From IMG/VR virus record IMGVR_UViG_2529293147_000015: a stretch of 49,846 nt of DNA; one strand, given 5' to 3'. Positions 26,706-32,343 of this stretch are shown one piece after another. Origin of the DNA: a virus. Taxonomy: Duplodnaviria > Heunggongvirae > Uroviricota > Caudoviricetes. A model generated the notes under the pieces. That model ran no database searches. It saw only the letters and a program-made list of their open reading frames with translations, and had not been told where the DNA came from. Position 1 is the stretch's first letter. Each line of letters begins with the position of its first letter. The position numbers and the translations under genes are program-made.

Positions 26706-26858
26706 TTATTCAGATTTACGCAGTAAAGGCCGGAGCACGACCAGCGCCATCACCACCAGCACACCATCTGCCAGCACCGACATCAGCCGTCCGGTGAAAT
26801 CCACTGCCACTACCAGAAACAGCAGGATGGCAGCCAGCACAAGGCGCGCACTTTTCAC
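26706..26858 (-). CDS. Small hydrophobic protein (GTG start overlapping the stop of the TerB-like gene)
   Basis: 50-aa ORF VKSARLVLAAILLFLVVAVDF...; below ORF-track cutoff; GTGA start/stop overlap. Confidence 0.3.
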   Translation of the reverse strand: MKSARLVLAAILLFLVVAVDFTGRLMSVLADGVLVVMALVVLRPLLRKSE

Positions 26859-27280
26859 AGGTACTGCTCCAGCGGTAGCTGAAGCGCCTGCGCAATTTTC
26901 TTGAGCTGTGCTTCTTCATCCGGACCAATGCCATCCTGGTCAGCGATATCCAGACACAGGCACAGCACATTAACTGCATCATCAGTACCGGCGACATCAG
27001 CCAGCTGACGAAGGGCTTCGGCATTGGCTGAACGCGGGGATGCTTCATAACGGGCGCGGATATTGGCGCTCATCTGGGCAATCTCACCGGAGAACGGCGC
27101 AAAGGCAGGAAGTGCTGCAATGGTTTTCTCCAGTACTGCGATTTCTTTCGCATCACAGGTGCCGTCAGCGTATGCAATGGAATACGCGCCCCAGACGGTC
27201 GCCTCCACTGCGTCGCGGTTCTCCATCTTCTTCACTTCGGTAATGGCCTTGCGGGTTTTCTTTTTGAAAATACCAAACAT
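26855..27280 (-). CDS. TerB-like (tellurite-resistance TerB domain) protein
   Basis: 141-aa ORF with TerB-like pattern ...AYADGTCDAKEIAVLEKTIA...LCLCLDIADQDGIGPDEEAQLKKIAQALQL. Confidence 0.55.
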   Translation of the reverse strand: MFGIFKKKTRKAITEVKKMENRDAVEATVWGAYSIAYADGTCDAKEIAVLEKTIAALPAFAPFSGEIAQMSANIRARYEASPRSANAEALRQLADVAGTDDAVNVLCLCLDIADQDGIGPDEEAQLKKIAQALQLPLEQYL

Positions 27281-27455: not shown

Positions 27456-27532
27456 TGGCGCGTTGTACTGGATTCGAACCAGTGACCGATTGCTTAGAAG
27501 GCAATTGCTCTGTCCGGCTGAGCTAACAACGC
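27456..27532 (-). tRNA. tRNA-Arg (anticodon TCT)
   Basis: Clean cloverleaf: acceptor GCGTTGT/ACAACGC, anticodon loop CTTCTAA, T-loop TTCGAAT, 3' CCA. Confidence 0.85.
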
Positions 27533-27549
27533 ATAATGCAGATAATAGA

Positions 27550-27625
27550 TTGCCATCGGGGACCCGAGCCCCACACAGCCAGTTTCGAAAGCTGGCACTC
27601 TCTGTCGATGAGCTAATGGCGGTAT
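27550..27625 (-). tRNA. tRNA-like element, degenerate or unusual (possible Arg, anticodon-loop candidate TCG)
   Basis: TAGCTC D-arm start and hairpin arms present, but D- and T-loops non-canonical and acceptor pairing imperfect. Confidence 0.35.
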
Positions 27626-27629
27626 GTGA

Positions 27630-27705
27630 TGGTGGCCCTTGCTGGATTTGAACCAGCGACCTGGCGATTATGAGTCGCTCGCTCTCACCACTGAGCTAAA
27701 GGGCC
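27630..27705 (-). tRNA. tRNA-Ile2 (anticodon CAT, ileX/ileZ-like)
   Basis: GGCCCTTTAGCTCAGTGGTGAGAGC...CTCATAA...GGTTCAAATCCAGCAAGGGCCACCA. Confidence 0.85.
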
Positions 27706-27754: not shown

Positions 27755-28804
27755 TCAAACGATTAAATCCTGAACTTCCCTGACTGTCTGTTCAAAACGT
27801 CCGGTCTCCAGCTCAACACCAATCGCACAACGCCCCAGTGCCATCGCCGCTTTTACCGTTGAACCTGAACCCATAAAAAAATCCGCAACCAAATCACCAG
27901 GGTGACTGCTGGCCTCAATTATCTGCCGCAACATATCTGCCGGTTTTTCACAGGGATGTTTGCCCGGATAAAACTGCACGGATTTATGCGTCCAGACATC
28001 CGTATACGGAACGGCAGCCGATACGGAAAAATAACGCCGCAAAGATTTATACTCTTCCAGCAGGCTGGCATATTGCCGGTTCAGTTCACTGTATGTGCTG
28101 ACCAGCTGGTGGTGTGGCTTTTCCAGTTCCCCTCGCTGATGCTTTTCTGCCGCAACACGCGCAAACAACGCCTGCAATTTGTTGTAATCCCCCTCGTTCG
28201 GTAATTGCCACTGACTGGTACCAAACCAGTGCGAAGCCATGTTTTTCTTTCCGGTGGCTTCCGCTATCTGTTTTGACGTTATTCCCAGTGATTCACGCGC
28301 ATCACGAAAGTAAGAAATCAGCGGGGCCATGACGTGCTGTTTTAGCTCACGCCCCTTTGCCTCATAGCCGTCATTTTTGGGCTGGTATGGCCCCTGATAA
28401 TGTTCTGCAAACAGAATGCGCTCTGTTGCCGGGAAATACGCCCGCAGGCTTTCCTTGTTGCACCCGTTCCAGCGCCCTGACGGCTTCGCCCAGATAATGT
28501 GGTTCAGCACATTAAAGCGCTGACGCATCATGATTTCGGTGTCAGATGCCAGGCGATGACCACAGAACAGGTAAAGACTTCCTGCGGGCTTCAGTCCCCG
28601 CCAGAACTGCGCCAGACACTGATTCAGCCATTTCAGGTAATCATCGTCGCCCTTCCACTGGTTATCCCAGCCCTCGGGCTTCACTTTAAAGTATGGCGGG
28701 TCTGTGACTATCAGATCGACAGAATTTTCCGGTAAGGTCTGGATAAATTCCAGACAATCAGCGTTGATTAACTCACAACTGGATATTTTTACAGTATTAG
28801 CCAT
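27755..28804 (-). CDS. Orphan DNA N6-adenine methyltransferase
   Basis: TDPPY catalytic motif and FFMGSGST AdoMet-binding motif; no adjacent restriction gene. Confidence 0.85.
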   Translation of the reverse strand: MANTVKISSCELINADCLEFIQTLPENSVDLIVTDPPYFKVKPEGWDNQWKGDDDYLKWLNQCLAQFWRGLKPAGSLYLFCGHRLASDTEIMMRQRFNVLNHIIWAKPSGRWNGCNKESLRAYFPATERILFAEHYQGPYQPKNDGYEAKGRELKQHVMAPLISYFRDARESLGITSKQIAEATGKKNMASHWFGTSQWQLPNEGDYNKLQALFARVAAEKHQRGELEKPHHQLVSTYSELNRQYASLLEEYKSLRRYFSVSAAVPYTDVWTHKSVQFYPGKHPCEKPADMLRQIIEASSHPGDLVADFFMGSGSTVKAAMALGRCAIGVELETGRFEQTVREVQDLIV

Positions 28805-28940
28805 AGATCAATAAGCACTTCTCTGATAGGCTCATACCGCTTTTGCGCAAAGCAGATGGGCCTGAGGTTTGCTTGTGACCACAACGCATGAGCAGATGGC
28901 TGGCAGGTGCCGCTAACACCCACCAGCCGCCCATTACCAC

Positions 28941-28967
28941 AAATTAAAAAACCTTCACCGCGGAAGG
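28941..28967 (-). terminator. Intrinsic terminator upstream of the methyltransferase gene
   Basis: Minus-strand hairpin CCTTC-cgcggt-GAAGG followed by TTTTTTAATTT. Confidence 0.45.
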
Positions 28968-29152
28968 CGTCTGTAACAACCGAACTGATAATCTGCCAGA
29001 CCCGCCATAACAAGCTGGGTCAGTATTAACTGGCAGCGTTCGCGTGAAAGGTAAGTATTCTGCGCAATCTCCCCGACGGTCGCCGGTTCGGTGACGCTTA
29101 ATTCATTAAACACCACTCTGGCAGTTTCGGTCATATCCTGCTGTTTTAGCAT
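28955..29152 (-). CDS. Small hypothetical protein, possibly HTH-like (start at MLKQQDM assumed)
   Basis: 66-aa ORF; alternative upstream start at 29275. Confidence 0.35.
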   Translation of the reverse strand: MLKQQDMTETARVVFNELSVTEPATVGEIAQNTYLSRERCQLILTQLVMAGLADYQFGCYRRLPR

Positions 29153-29274
29153 GTCTTTTTCCCTTTTCTGGTTAACGTGACATACCAATAACTCTTGTCG
29201 AAAAAGCCAGCAAGCTGAAAGACCGGTATTCGCAACCACCAGCACGTTTAACGTACTGCGCCGTTTTTCGGACA

Positions 29275-29297
29275 CAAAAAACCGCCTGGCGGCGGGT
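29275..29297 (-). terminator. Intrinsic terminator (tR'-like candidate) in the Q-late gene interval
   Basis: Minus-strand hairpin CCGCC-gcca-GGCGG followed by TTTTTTGT. Confidence 0.45.
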
Positions 29298-29433
29298 TTA
29301 AGCTGTGTGGCGAAGTAACCACTCTTAACAGCATATTTGATTTTTTACGATTGTAAACATCTGTTCGGCGATGTCTTTTTACGATAAAATTTAGTCGAAC
29401 TTTTCTTGTACGATAATTCACAAGCAGGCCCAT

Positions 29434-29913
29434 ATGAAAAAAATAGCATTGACATTATTAAGTACATTGATCATTACAGGGTGTACGGCTCAATCTTCCG
29501 CAGAAAACAGAAATAGTGATCATTATGCGTATTTAAAGAAATGCGAAAATATCACCTTGGACAACACGCCCCAGCAAGTTAACAAAAATAATTTTTTAAA
29601 GCTTCTATATAAGGGAGAAATGATAATCAACACTACACAATTTATTACTTCCAGCAAGCAAGATATGTTAGTGAGAGTTGGCTGGGATCCCGATATATCA
29701 AAAGCAATCGCTGACTGCGACATCGAGCAAATGATGATCGTTTTAAATGCAGCAAAAGAACCATTTGAAAAACTCAAGGCAAACACAAAATCACCTACAG
29801 AGCGAGAAGCATTAATCAAAACGTATAGCGCATGGGAAAACTACGTAAGTTCTCCATCCAGAGAAAACAAAAATAATTTTAACGAAAAAGCGAGTTATTA
29901 TAAAAACATTTAA
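29434..29913 (+). CDS. Lipoprotein moron, AT-rich, convergent to Q
   Basis: MKKIALTLLSTLIITGC lipobox; visibly lower GC than flanks; upstream TACGAT repeats; downstream inverted repeat ACCCTCTCC-gca-TGGAGAGGGT. Confidence 0.65.
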   Translation: MKKIALTLLSTLIITGCTAQSSAENRNSDHYAYLKKCENITLDNTPQQVNKNNFLKLLYKGEMIINTTQFITSSKQDMLVRVGWDPDISKAIADCDIEQMMIVLNAAKEPFEKLKANTKSPTEREALIKTYSAWENYVSSPSRENKNNFNEKASYYKNI

Positions 29914-29957
29914 TTCATACCCTCTCCGCATGGAGAGGGTATGTGAGTTAAGTTTTA

Positions 29958-30332
29958 TCAGTCCATGTCCAGCTTGATATCAAGCATCATCAACATGCCG
30001 TCAACTATCCCTTCAGCCTTTTGCAACAAACGGCCAACCCAGCAATCCGAACGACCATGCTTTCGTGCTAGCGCCATAAACGTCATGCCCGCCACGTAAT
30101 AATCTACCAGCAAATCGTGTAATTCTTTGTTGTTCTTATTCAACCGGGCCATACAGCCACAAATGATCATTGCGTCATCGTCGGAACATTGCGGACGCGA
30201 TTTAACTTTCGACGGTATTAATCCTTTAAAGCCAGCAGCAATCGATGGCCATGTGACATCCTCATGATTATTTGCCACCCACGCTCCCCAACGCTCAAGA
30301 ACCATCTGAATATCACGTGCCATCGTTACCAC
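29958..30332 (-). CDS. Q: Late-gene antiterminator Q
   Basis: 124-aa [31 protein letters not shown]... with Cys/His cluster, typical of Q-family proteins of E. coli prophages. Confidence 0.75.
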
Positions 30333-30684
30333 CTGTAATTTCGTAAATCTTCACGCCCAGCCGACCACCAGGTACAAGCTGACTGCGCACAATATTAATT
30401 TCATCAAACTGCTCGTCGTCGATAAGCAGTCCCGCATGTGTCAGTGCATCCAGTGGCGCTTTCAGGATATTGTCCAGGTCACGACGGCGCTTATCCGGTG
30501 GCTCCACAATAATCCTGATCGCCAGCCTTCCGGACAGATTTAATTTCAGTCGCTGCTGGCGAACAATGAGCGCCACATCACGGCGATAACGCTCACCGGC
30601 TTTTGATACAAAATATGTACTGCCACGACGTCGCCAGTAGGTGTTCACCGTTGGCGGGTAAGGCAAAACAAACTCTATACGCAT
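30313..30684 (-). CDS. rusA: Holliday junction resolvase RusA
   Basis: RRRDLDN catalytic motif, ~123 aa. Confidence 0.85.
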
Positions 30685-30696
30685 CAGTAACCTCTT

Positions 30697-31746
30697 TTAC
30701 CCGAGCACGCCGGTTGCAAAGGCGTGATCAAGAAAACGAAAAATTAAATCAATCTGGGAACCATGCTTTTCTTCAAATGCCAGCGGATCAGCATGAAGTT
30801 CATTGTGATGCTCCCGGCACAGCGGTAGCGTGAAAATATCGTGGGCTTTTGTCCCCATCCCTCCCTGACCGTGACCAATCAGGTGATGGGGATCGTCGGC
30901 TGGCTTACCACAACATGCACACGGCTGTGTCTTAACCCAGCGCGTGTACTTTTCGTTAACCCAGCGGCGACGTTTAGGTCGCTTCATGAAAGATTCAGGA
31001 GACTCCGGATCAACGGCAATGCTGACCACCGTCTTTTCCTGTGGTGGGTTCTGTTGCTGGTGGGCGTGAGGCGGTAGCACAATATTTTTTGTGCGCTGCT
31101 TCAGTATGCTGGTGGCTGTCTGCTCTCCCGGTATGATGTCGCTTTCACGGTACACAGAGCGGATTTTTTCCGCACGTAACCCCAGAGAACGACGTAATAC
31201 TGCCTCCGGAAGCGCGTCCGCCACCTGATTGCGGACCGCCCACCAGGATAATTCAGCCAGCGATAATTCCCGCTCCTGCGTGCCATTCACTGCATGGCGT
31301 ATGACGTCAATCATCCATGCTGACAGGTTTTGATGAGCAAGTTGCCCGAGTGATTCGGATGTCTGGTCACGCAGCTGGTTGTCGCAGTGCCAGCACAGCA
31401 CCATCGCGCCGGTACCGTAACGATGTATGACGGTTTCACTGTGATGGTAGTCACCATGAGGCCACTGGCAGGATTTAACATGACGCAGGAGCCAGTCAGA
31501 CAGTGCACCAGCGCCGCCGGCAGCACGAATCACCCGCTCATCGCTGAAAAATGGCAGCAGAGATTTGTCTTCCGCCAGCGGCTGGCGAACGGCAGGAACG
31601 ACCCCGGACGGCAGACCGCGCATGCTTTTTGGCTCCGGTTCAACCAGCACTCTGCCGTTATGGAATACCTGCATGGATTCACGACCTGGCTTAACGATAA
31701 CCACCCCAAGTTCCGGCACCAGAACAGGTCGAAGTAATACCCGCAC
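30697..31746 (-). CDS. NinG/DUF968-like phage protein with C-terminal Cys/His (HNH-like) motif
   Basis: C-terminal ...CACCGKPADDPHHLIGHGQGGMGTKAHDIFTLPLCREHHNELH; located in the nin region beside rusA. Confidence 0.55.
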   Translation of the reverse strand: MRVLLRPVLVPELGVVIVKPGRESMQVFHNGRVLVEPEPKSMRGLPSGVVPAVRQPLAEDKSLLPFFSDERVIRAAGGAGALSDWLLRHVKSCQWPHGDYHHSETVIHRYGTGAMVLCWHCDNQLRDQTSESLGQLAHQNLSAWMIDVIRHAVNGTQERELSLAELSWWAVRNQVADALPEAVLRRSLGLRAEKIRSVYRESDIIPGEQTATSILKQRTKNIVLPPHAHQQQNPPQEKTVVSIAVDPESPESFMKRPKRRRWVNEKYTRWVKTQPCACCGKPADDPHHLIGHGQGGMGTKAHDIFTLPLCREHHNELHADPLAFEEKHGSQIDLIFRFLDHAFATGVLG

Positions 31747-32149: not shown

Positions 32150-32193
32150 ATCAGAGGTGGCGAGGGATTTCTCCCCCGCCAGGTCTCTTACTC

Positions 32194-32343
32194 CTCAGGT
32201 TCGTAAGCTGTGAAGACAGCGACCTCCGTCTGGCCGGTTCGGATTCGTACCTCGCAGAGGTCTTTCCTCGTTACCAGTGCCGTCACTATGACGGTTAAAC
32301 AGATGACGATCAGGGCGATTAACATCGCCTTTCGCTGCTTCAT
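32194..32343 (-). pseudogene. hok/gef-family type I toxin, C-terminus frameshifted by a 1-nt insertion
   Basis: Reads MKQRKAMLIALIVICLTVIVTALVTRKDLCEVRIRTGQTEV then RCLHSLRT*; removing one C near 32220 restores the canonical ...VAVFTAYEPEE* ending; small upstream ORF (32340..32399) whose stop overlaps the hok ATG. Confidence 0.6.

What the first reader, a model, noticed from the sequence alone, without database searches (positions are those of the whole stretch)
29275..29950. AT-rich lipoprotein moron convergent to Q, with TACGAT repeats and terminators on both sides
The 159-aa lipoprotein gene (lipobox LIITGC) has much lower GC than its flanks and is transcribed against the late operon. Its upstream region carries three TACGAT(A/T) repeats (29351..29425), with an inverted repeat ACCCTCTCC-gca-TGGAGAGGGT downstream and a minus-strand terminator at 29275..29297. 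Prophage lipoproteins in such positions often mediate superinfection exclusion or envelope modification.
Basis: partly seen in the sequence, partly recalled or inferred. Interest (0 to 1): 0.5.

Follow-up and report, generated by a model that had tools for sequence, protein, structure and literature searches.

The report
Prophage lipoprotein moron beside Q
A small AT-rich gene for an outer-membrane lipoprotein of unknown function sits in a cargo slot between a prophage's late-gene regulator Q and the late promoter, a slot that in related E. coli prophages often holds anti-phage defence genes. It is a real but fairly ordinary prophage add-on gene.

Summary
ORF 29434..29913(+) encodes a 159-aa lipoprotein (lipobox ITG|C, Thr at +2). 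Its GC is about 0.35 against 0.46-0.55 in the flanks. It is convergent with a Q21-family Q gene and is followed by a strong hairpin.

Two details need correcting:
- The minus-strand terminator at 29275-29297 and the first TACGAT copy are not part of the cassette. They belong to a conserved late-promoter/leader/terminator block (pR'-tR') found in more than 120 related phage loci.
- The gene lies between Q and pR'. It is therefore outside the late operon, not antisense to it.

In the related loci, a palindrome just upstream of the block co-varies one-to-one with the Q allele, which marks it as the likely Q-binding site. The space between Q and this promoter is a hypervariable cargo hotspot: 83 of 95 loci carry cargo, 71 of them convergent with Q, with median GC 0.37. 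The cargo includes a Kiwa KwaB-like protein and PADLOC candidate systems.

The protein belongs to a small uncharacterised family (phrog_8179) that includes phage phi80 MorF. Members occur only in lambdoid prophage moron slots. The AlphaFold model (pLDDT 87) is a generic four-helix bundle, and I found no functional homolog. The best guess is an envelope-level superinfection-exclusion lipoprotein, with low-to-moderate confidence.

The parts
29434..29913 (+). Lipoprotein gene (159 aa). Signal peptide 29434-29481, lipid-modified Cys17 at 29482-29484. The mature protein is a four-helix bundle with conserved Cys37 and Cys95 and a C-terminal motif ALIxxYSAWExY...YYKNI.
   Evidence: phrog_8179, E 1e-99; 36% identity to phi80 MorF; family alignment; AF2 pLDDT 87.3
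29916..29943 (.). Perfect 12-bp hairpin (CATACCCTCTCC-GCAT-GGAGAGGGTATG) between the convergent lipoprotein and Q genes. It is the likely 3' terminator or stabiliser of the cassette mRNA and a barrier to read-through from Q. The extended stem runs 29908-29953 on +.
29359..29433 (+). Cassette-specific 5' region. It holds TACGAT copies 2 (29380-85) and 3 (29409-14), a weak promoter candidate TTTAGT(29390)-16-GATAAT(29412), and an AGG Shine-Dalgarno at 29426-28.
   Evidence: (the ETEC1717 cassette diverges from 29359)
29325..29351 (+). Plus-strand promoter-like site TTAACA-15-TACGAT (9/12) inside the conserved block, pointing into the cargo. It is shared with the ETEC1717 cassette. It is a candidate only.
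29330..29357 (-). Inferred late promoter pR'. -35 TTTACA (29357-52), 16-nt spacer, -10 TATGCT (29335-30). An imperfect palindrome TTTACAATCGTAAA (29357-29344) is the putative Q-binding element and contains TACGAT copy 1.
   Evidence: the palindrome co-varies with the Q allele; the QBE lies between -35 and -10 in pR' promoters
29298..29329 (-). Conserved leader of the late transcript, with the hairpin GUGG-UUACUUCG-CCAC. Positions 29330..29305 (TGTTAAGAGTGGTTACTTCGCCACAC) were the exact-match search pattern, so their identity across loci is by construction. The leader downstream of the pattern is also near-invariant.
29275..29297 (-). Intrinsic terminator of the short late leader (tR'-type). 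The hairpin plus T-run is kept in all 34 sequence variants.
29958..30332 (-). Antiterminator Q of the Q21 family (PF06530). The start annotated in RM11911 gives 121 aa, 29958..30323.
28955..29152 (-). First gene after the terminator: a 65-aa phrog_331 protein that NCBI annotation labels 'TrmB family'. It is followed by a DNA methyltransferase (27755..28804) and tRNA genes.

Best explanation
The segment 29359..29957 is a horizontally acquired, self-contained moron cassette. It has a 5' control region, a lipoprotein gene and a 3' hairpin. It sits in a cargo hotspot of Q21-family lambdoid prophages, between the stop codon of Q and Q's cognate late promoter pR' (29357..29330, minus strand). pR' is followed by a leader of about 50 nt and the terminator at 29297..29275.

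Because the gene is upstream of pR' and on the other strand, it is not part of the late operon. It can be transcribed in the lysogen from its own (unmapped) promoter. In lytic growth it would be opposed by early transcription reading out of Q.

The product is exported, lipidated at Cys17 and, with Thr at +2, sorted by Lol to the outer membrane. There it exposes a disulfide-stabilised four-helix bundle to the periplasm. It belongs to the uncharacterised MorF/phrog_8179 family, whose members are found only in moron slots of lambdoid prophages.

Most likely role (inferred, not shown): an envelope-level superinfection-exclusion or anti-phage factor that interferes with adsorption or genome delivery by incoming phages.

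My confidence in the anatomy (moron between Q and pR', outer-membrane lipoprotein of the MorF family) is about 0.85. My confidence in the exclusion function is about 0.35.
For: Gene and cassette:
- ORF, lipobox and low GC.
- The cassette is absent in PhiR5_1, where Q is followed within about 30 nt by the same promoter/leader/terminator block.
- In ETEC1717-type prophages the same slot holds an unrelated 148-aa lipoprotein, and homology to the window runs up to 29358.

The slot:
- In 120 IMG/VR loci sharing the 26-nt leader, 95 have Q within 2.6 kb. Of these, 83 carry cargo, 71 convergent with Q, with cargo GC median 0.366.
- Cargo includes a KwaB-like protein next to a predicted membrane protein (Pfam) and PADLOC PDC-S20 and PDC-M53A.
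- Nine Q-allele clusters map one-to-one onto five palindrome types at a fixed position upstream of the block, whatever the distance (20-2310 nt) or cargo. This is the position known for Q-binding elements (PMC6606751).

The protein and its family:
- phrog_8179 at E 1e-99.
- phi80 MorF at 36.5% identity, E 1e-17, annotated there as a moron lipoprotein with its own promoter and terminator.
- 21 family representatives, all about 160-aa lipoproteins, none with Asp at +2, with conserved Cys37 and Cys95.
- Family members sit before the tape-measure gene, after gpM, between I and J, near the early-left genes, near the immunity region, or after a lambda-type Q.
- The chaperone/tape-measure slot is where the HK97 gp15 exclusion moron lies (PMC3594210).
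- AF2 model with pLDDT 87.3, all-alpha.
Against: - No convincing sigma-70 promoter lies upstream of the ORF; the best candidates score 8-9 of 12.
- The hairpin lacks a canonical adjacent U-tract.
- Such hotspots also carry non-defence cargo such as toxins, porins and serum-resistance genes (established knowledge). Context alone therefore does not fix the function.
- pR' and the Q-binding site are inferred from conservation and covariation only. The palindromic form differs from the direct-repeat QBE of phage 21 itself.
Confidence: 0.45

Rival explanations
1. A host-fitness or virulence moron. The outer-membrane lipoprotein would alter envelope properties (serum or complement resistance as with lambda Bor, adhesion, stress tolerance) rather than block phages.
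For: It has the same general class and expression logic as Bor or Lom (established knowledge; the moron review PMC3594210). The exact protein is seen on 229 E. coli contigs. It has no PADLOC match.
Against: No similarity to Bor, Lom, TraT or any Pfam family. Family members are confined to prophage moron slots, several inside tail modules. The same slot in sister prophages holds defence systems.
Confidence: 0.22
2. A periplasmic immunity or inhibitor protein: a distant relative of the DUF1311/LprI (PF07007) or Pim-type inhibitors. It would neutralise a peptidoglycan hydrolase or imported toxin, such as a phage tail-associated muralytic enzyme, a bacteriocin or a T6SS effector.
For: Four of 24 family members give weak PF07007 hits (E 0.03-0.19). 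The three inspected members hit in the same register, residues about 83-145 against profile positions 8-70. One member gives a weak Pim hit (E 0.027). The motifs look alike by eye: C...LN...(L)xxAYSAWxxY against YecT C...LNKAY...SQRAWLDFR. The protein is periplasmic with conserved cysteines.
Confidence: 0.13
3. A silent or decaying passenger. The ORF is real but not expressed, for example silenced by H-NS on AT-rich DNA and lacking a working promoter. Or it acts only during lytic growth.
For: No strong promoter match. Very AT-rich. The gene is rare among complete E. coli genomes: 1 of 5426 matches over at least 80% of the query.
Against: The ORF is intact and nearly identical (99-100%) across many isolates and different prophage backbones. 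The family is conserved at 22-53% identity with invariant cysteines and motifs, and gives a confident fold. This indicates purifying selection.
Confidence: 0.1

Closest known systems
Phage phi80 MorF lipoprotein (FN582354; PHROG 8179)
   Same: Homologous: 36.5% identity over 91% of the protein, tblastn E 1e-17. It has the same length class, lipobox, conserved cysteines and AYSxWE motif. In phi80 it is annotated as a moron with its own promoter and terminator.
   Different: MorF lies between tail genes I and J on the same strand as the tail operon. The window gene lies between Q and pR' on the opposite strand. MorF as annotated lacks the last ~11 residues (YYKNx end). I found no study of MorF's function.
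HK97 gp15 moron (superinfection exclusion; between tail chaperone and tape-measure genes)
   Same: It has the same genetic logic: an AT-rich moron expressed from the prophage. Proteus and Providencia members of this family occupy the same chaperone/tape-measure slot (PMC3594210).
   Different: gp15 is an inner-membrane protein, not a lipoprotein. There is no sequence relationship. An exclusion function has not been shown for this family.
Exclusion or serum-resistance lipoproteins of coliphages (Cor of phi80/N15/HK022, Llp of T5, Bor of lambda)
   Same: All are small phage-encoded outer-membrane lipoproteins made in the lysogen or early in infection, and they act at the envelope (established knowledge; Cor in PMC3594210).
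   Different: No sequence or fold similarity was detected. Those proteins are smaller, and to my recollection are not helical bundles, whereas this one is a 140-residue four-helix bundle.
Prophage defence hotspots (P2/P4 hotspots; phi80 Tai locus upstream of the packaging genes)
   Same: A fixed position between conserved phage genes carries hypervariable, AT-rich, often antisense cargo that includes known or candidate defence systems (PMC9122126; PMC11364771).
   Different: Here the slot is defined by Q on one side and Q's own target promoter on the other. I found no paper describing this particular slot. The lipoprotein itself is not a known defence gene.
Phage 21 Q / pR' / QBE late-gene switch (Q21 family, PF06530)
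   Same: The neighbouring Q is a PF06530 member. An allele-specific DNA element sits between the -35 and -10 regions of a promoter that is followed by a short leader and a terminator.
   Different: The phage 21 QBE is two direct TGAGCA repeats. The elements inferred here are palindromes (TTTACAATCGTAAA, GCGTACGC, GCGGTCCGC, TGTTATAACA, GGAATTCC). Binding has not been tested.

Membership tests
Bacterial lipoprotein (Lgt/LspA/Lnt substrate) | N-terminal signal peptide with a positive n-region, a hydrophobic h-region and the lipobox [LVI][ASTVI][GAS]C | tested here: met
   MKK-IALTLLSTLI-ITG|C. The lipobox Cys is invariant in 21 to 24 family members.
Bacterial lipoprotein (Lgt/LspA/Lnt substrate) | Globomycin-sensitive cleavage and acylation of the Cys | not testable with these tools
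   Needs labelling or globomycin experiments.
Outer-membrane (Lol-sorted) lipoprotein of E. coli | No Asp at position +2 after the lipidated Cys | tested here: met
   +2 is Thr. Across the family +2 is S, A, T or V, never D.
Moron (Juhala/Hendrix definition; PMC3594210) | Extra DNA relative to related phages at the same position | tested here: met
   Absent in PhiR5_1-type loci and replaced by other cargo elsewhere.
Moron (Juhala/Hendrix definition; PMC3594210) | Base composition differs from the neighbouring genes | tested here: met
   GC 0.34-0.375 against 0.46-0.55.
Moron (Juhala/Hendrix definition; PMC3594210) | Own terminator | tested here: inconclusive
   A very stable hairpin follows the stop codon (z -6.8), but the U-tract is imperfect. 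The consensus scan did not call it.
Moron (Juhala/Hendrix definition; PMC3594210) | Own promoter, with expression from the repressed prophage | tested here: inconclusive
   Only weak candidates (8-9 of 12 matches). Expression is not testable here.
MorF / PHROG 8179 lipoprotein family | Significant full-length sequence similarity | tested here: met
   phrog_8179 at E 9.7e-100 over 1-159. phi80 MorF at E 1e-17. 21 representatives at E 1.7e-41 to 7e-5.
LprI / DUF1311 (PF07007) | Score above the Pfam gathering threshold, or a significant profile-profile match | tested here: not met
   The window protein gives no hit. Four of 24 relatives score 13-15 bits against a cutoff of 22. hhalign against the YecT family gives probability 0.4%. 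That test profile was narrow, so a very distant relationship is not excluded.
Known phage exclusion or defence proteins (Bor, Cor, TraT, PADLOC systems) | Match to the family model | tested here: not met
   Pfam gave no hit above threshold and PADLOC gave none. Fold searches returned only generic helical bundles.
Q21-family antitermination module (neighbouring gene and promoter) | PF06530 Q protein, with a Q-binding element between -35 and -10 of a promoter followed by a terminator | tested here: met
   PF06530 at E 6e-51. An allele-specific palindrome sits at a fixed position in a promoter-like site followed by hairpin plus T-run. Physical binding and the sigma-dependent pause were not tested.

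The most novel reading that the evidence does not exclude
The MorF/phrog_8179 lipoproteins are a new class of periplasm-facing, outer-membrane-anchored four-helix-bundle exclusion factors. Lambdoid prophages shuttle them between moron slots to block genome delivery by competing siphophages. In this cassette, the two extra copies of the Q-site core (TACGAT at 29380 and 29409) couple its expression, or the late switch, to Q.
Probability: 0.25. Interest if true: 0.6.

Novelty: new member of a known kind. Interest (0 to 1): 0.4.

Why it matters
The gene is one more uncharacterised prophage lipoprotein, so on its own it is ordinary. Three things make it useful:
- It ties an orphan E. coli gene to a small, purely prophage-borne family (phi80 MorF) that now has a confident fold model and testable conserved residues.
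- It shows that the space between a Q21-family Q gene and its target promoter is a busy cargo and defence hotspot. That makes the slot a practical place to mine for new anti-phage genes.
- The Q-allele/palindrome covariation predicts the DNA sites for several untested Q variants.

Tried and rejected
- Single-sequence AlphaFold gave a poor model (pLDDT 48). It was replaced by a 24-sequence alignment model.
- The word-indexed protein search found only the gene's own cluster. With a profile it found 8 proteins.
- The PDB sequence profile search found only signal-peptide-level noise.
- The LprI/DUF1311 lead from weak Pfam hits was tested against an E. coli YecT-family profile and was not supported.
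- Rfam found nothing in 28900-30000 apart from a chance snoRNA-level match.
- Literature searches for MorF, for the leader sequence and for a Q/late-promoter hotspot found nothing specific.
- I first took the PhiR5_1 Q for the same allele as the window's. It is only 46% identical, because the DNA match covered mostly the leader region. This in fact fits the covariation pattern.
- I tested whether extra Q-site copies are a general feature of cargo 5' regions. They are not: among 63 unique regions, only those carrying this cassette have them.
- Association with tape-measure genes is frequent but not universal. I therefore did not use it as evidence for a tape-measure target.

Full report
**1. 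What is there**

The window is a lambdoid prophage whose genes run mostly on the minus strand. Around the finding, in the direction of phage transcription, lie:
- a DUF968 protein (30697..31746)
- RusA (30313..30684)
- the antiterminator Q (29958..30332; PF06530, E 6e-51)
- the plus-strand ORF 29434..29913
- a small phrog_331 gene (28955..29152)
- a DNA methyltransferase (27755..28804)
- two tRNA genes

The plus-strand ORF encodes 159 aa starting MKKIALTLLSTLIITG|C, a textbook lipoprotein signal peptide. GC falls to 0.34-0.375 over 29300-29999, against 0.46-0.55 on either side. A perfect 12-bp inverted repeat (29916-29927 / 29932-29943) lies between the two convergent stop codons. It folds far better than shuffled sequence on both strands (z about -6.8). 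TACGAT occurs at 29346, 29380 and 29409, and a hairpin plus T-run lies on the minus strand at 29295..29275.

**2. Which parts belong to the cassette**

Three comparisons fix the boundaries.
- *PhiR5_1.* This phage has a related but different Q allele. About 30 nt after its Q stop codon comes a sequence that is nearly identical to window 29330..29275 read on the minus strand: TGTTAAGAGTGGTTACTTCGCCACACAGCTTAAACCCGCC...TTTTTT. It has no lipoprotein gene.
- *ETEC1717.* This E. coli strain has a Q 92% identical to the window's, and its homology to the window extends to 29358. After that point it carries a different AT-rich cassette, which encodes an unrelated 148-aa lipoprotein (MNKMTVLLLSATIISG|C). 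That gene is also convergent with Q and also followed by a hairpin.
- *Other isolates.* RM11911 and other E. coli isolates carry the window's cassette at 99-100% identity in the same slot but in different prophage backbones.

The cassette is therefore 29359..29957. The terminator at 29275-29297 and TACGAT copy 1 belong to a conserved block outside it.

**3. What the conserved block is**

An exact-match scan of IMG/VR for the 26-nt leader returned 120 loci.
- The base just before the block plus the block's first T form a TAnnnT hexamer in nearly all variants. In the window this is TATGCT, 29335..29330.
- The window type also has TTTACA 16 nt upstream (29357..29352), which the consensus scan called independently.
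- Downstream, every one of 34 sequence variants keeps a G+C hairpin followed by a T-run.

The decisive result comes from clustering the upstream Q proteins at 80% identity. That gives nine clusters, which map one-to-one onto five forms of a short palindrome at a fixed position between the -35 and -10 regions:
- GCGGTCCGC
- GCGTACGC
- TTTAC(A/G)ATCGTAAA (the window type)
- TGTTATAACA
- GGAATTCC (phiP27)

This holds whether Q ends 20 nt or 2310 nt away, and whatever lies in between. PF06530 is the Q21 family (PMC9388147), and Q-binding elements lie between -35 and -10 of pR' (PMC6606751).

I therefore read 29357..29330 as pR' with its Q-binding site, 29329..29298 as the leader, and 29297..29275 as the tR'-type terminator. 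This rests on conservation and covariation, not on experiment. The palindromic form also differs from the direct repeats of phage 21 itself.

Two consequences follow:
- The lipoprotein gene lies between Q and pR', outside the late operon and divergent from pR'. It is not antisense to late transcription.
- TACGAT copy 1 is half of the putative Q site.

**4. The slot is a cargo and defence hotspot**

Of the 120 loci, 95 have Q within 2.6 kb. Twelve have no cargo and 83 do. In 71 of the 83 the largest cargo ORF is convergent with Q. Cargo GC has a median of 0.366 and a range of 0.29-0.42.

The cargo is highly diverse and is often a gene pair of about 300 aa plus a 150-190-aa membrane protein. It includes:
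- a KwaB-like protein next to a predicted membrane protein, suggestive of the Kiwa system (Pfam PF16162)
- PADLOC candidates PDC-S20 and PDC-M53A
- an SDH-type protease
- a GIY-YIG nuclease in phiP27
- two unrelated lipoproteins

The window's features (AT-rich, antisense, own hairpin) are thus typical of this slot.

**5. The protein**

- *Family searches.* No Pfam, NCBIfam or PADLOC family matches above threshold. PHROG 8179 (unknown function) matches end to end. tblastn finds phi80 MorF and two phi80-like phages at about 36% identity. MorF is annotated as a moron lipoprotein between tail genes I and J.
- *Family size and conservation.* An exhaustive HMMER search of 1.84 billion representatives found only 23 hits. 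Twenty-one of these are real and two are repeat-protein artefacts. All the full-length hits (19 of the 21; two are N-terminally truncated fragments) are lipoproteins of 144-172 aa, with invariant Cys17, near-invariant Cys37 and Cys95, and the motif ALIxAYSAWExY...YYKN[IM] at the C-terminus. None has Asp at +2.
- *The one functional lead.* A weak, register-consistent similarity of a few members to PF07007 (LprI/DUF1311), and one to Pim, was not confirmed by profile-profile comparison with the YecT family.

**6. Where the family lives**

Every context examined is a lambdoid prophage cargo site:
- immediately upstream of the tape-measure gene in Proteus and Providencia prophages
- after gpM
- before tail genes I and J (phi80)
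- next to the early-left genes
- next to the immunity region among toxin-antitoxin pairs
- after a lambda-type Q, again convergent

The chaperone/tape-measure site is where the HK97 gp15 exclusion moron lies (PMC3594210). The family is thus a mobile moron gene, not a structural or lysis gene.

**7. Mechanism**

*Shown or directly read from the sequence:*
- It is a lipoprotein precursor.
- Its +2 residue is compatible with outer-membrane sorting.
- It is an acquired cassette.
- It lies between Q and the conserved promoter block.

*Inferred:*
- It is transcribed in the lysogen from its own promoter. The candidates are TTAACA-15-TACGAT at 29325-29351, which is shared with the ETEC1717 cassette and overlaps pR' back to back, or TTTAGT-16-GATAAT at 29390-29417.
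- Its transcript ends at the hairpin.
- It is opposed in lytic growth by early transcription leaving Q.

*Speculative but most likely:* the protein acts at the envelope against superinfecting phages. The main rivals are a Bor-like host-fitness role, a periplasmic inhibitor or immunity role, and silence.

**8. Unexplained**

TACGAT copies 2 and 3 repeat the core of the putative Q site. Among 63 unique cargo 5' regions of all five site types, only those carrying this cassette have extra copies of their own site core. By my own estimate, two further same-strand copies in about 80 nt of 35%-GC DNA have a chance probability near 4e-4, although this is a post hoc figure. They could be -10-like promoter elements or extra Q half-sites.

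**9. Verdict**

This is a genuine moron lipoprotein of an uncharacterised, phage-restricted family, sitting in a slot that turns out to be a defence-rich hotspot. It is a new member of a known kind, of moderate interest. Its function is unproven.

Noticed in passing
window 29275-29357 (-); loci L004-L126: In Q21-family (PF06530) prophages, nine Q-allele clusters co-vary one-to-one with five palindrome types at a fixed place in a conserved promoter/leader/terminator block: GCGGTCCGC, GCGTACGC, TTTACAATCGTAAA, TGTTATAACA and GGAATTCC. This predicts their Q-binding sites. The sites are palindromic, unlike the direct repeats of phage 21.
   Followed up: yes
between Q and the block in L007-L126 (equivalent to window 29359-29957): The Q-to-pR' gap is a hypervariable cargo hotspot. 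83 of 95 loci carry 0.5-2.3 kb of AT-rich cargo, mostly convergent with Q. The cargo includes a KwaB-like protein next to a predicted membrane protein, PADLOC PDC-S20 and PDC-M53A, an SDH-type protease, and many unannotated two-gene sets with a membrane protein.
   Followed up: partly
L006 2673-3119 (E. coli ETEC1717): A second, unrelated 148-aa lipoprotein (MNKMTVLLLSATIISGC...) occupies the same slot behind a 92%-identical Q. It is much commoner than the window's gene (cluster of 291 members, more than 1000 contigs). It has no Pfam or PADLOC match.
   Followed up: partly
window 29298-29329 (-): The predicted leader RNA of about 50 nt, from pR' to the terminator, contains a conserved hairpin GUGG-UUACUUCG-CCAC. 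By analogy with the lambda 6S RNA and StxS of Stx phages (from memory), it would probably be made constitutively in lysogens. It has no Rfam family.
   Followed up: partly
window 27456-27705 (-): There are two tRNA genes, Arg-tct and a CAT-anticodon tRNA. The equivalent gene in phiP27 is annotated ileZ. A third tRNA-like match at 27549-27622 scores below threshold (23.7 bits). All three lie downstream of the methyltransferase, as in Stx-phage late regions.
   Followed up: no
window 32188-32343 (-): A 51-aa ORF, MKQRKAMLIALIVICLTVIVTALVTRKDLCEVRIRTGQTEVAVFTAYEPEE, looks like a Hok/Gef-family toxin (HokD/RelF-like). This is recognised from memory and was not tested.
   Followed up: no
window 26855-27280 (-): A 141-aa protein with a TerB-like domain (PF05099, E 1e-7) lies between the tRNA genes and the presumed lysis genes.
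   Followed up: no
L002 3950-4408 (phi80 MorF): The annotated phi80 MorF ends about 11 residues before the conserved YYKNx C-terminus of the family, yet the tblastn alignment continues past the annotated stop. This may be a truncation or a sequencing or annotation issue in phi80.
   Followed up: no
L138 4180-4659; L141 4156-4686 (Providencia prophages): A VasI-like (PF11319, T6SS-associated) protein lies two genes upstream of the family member, in the accessory island before the tape-measure gene.
   Followed up: no
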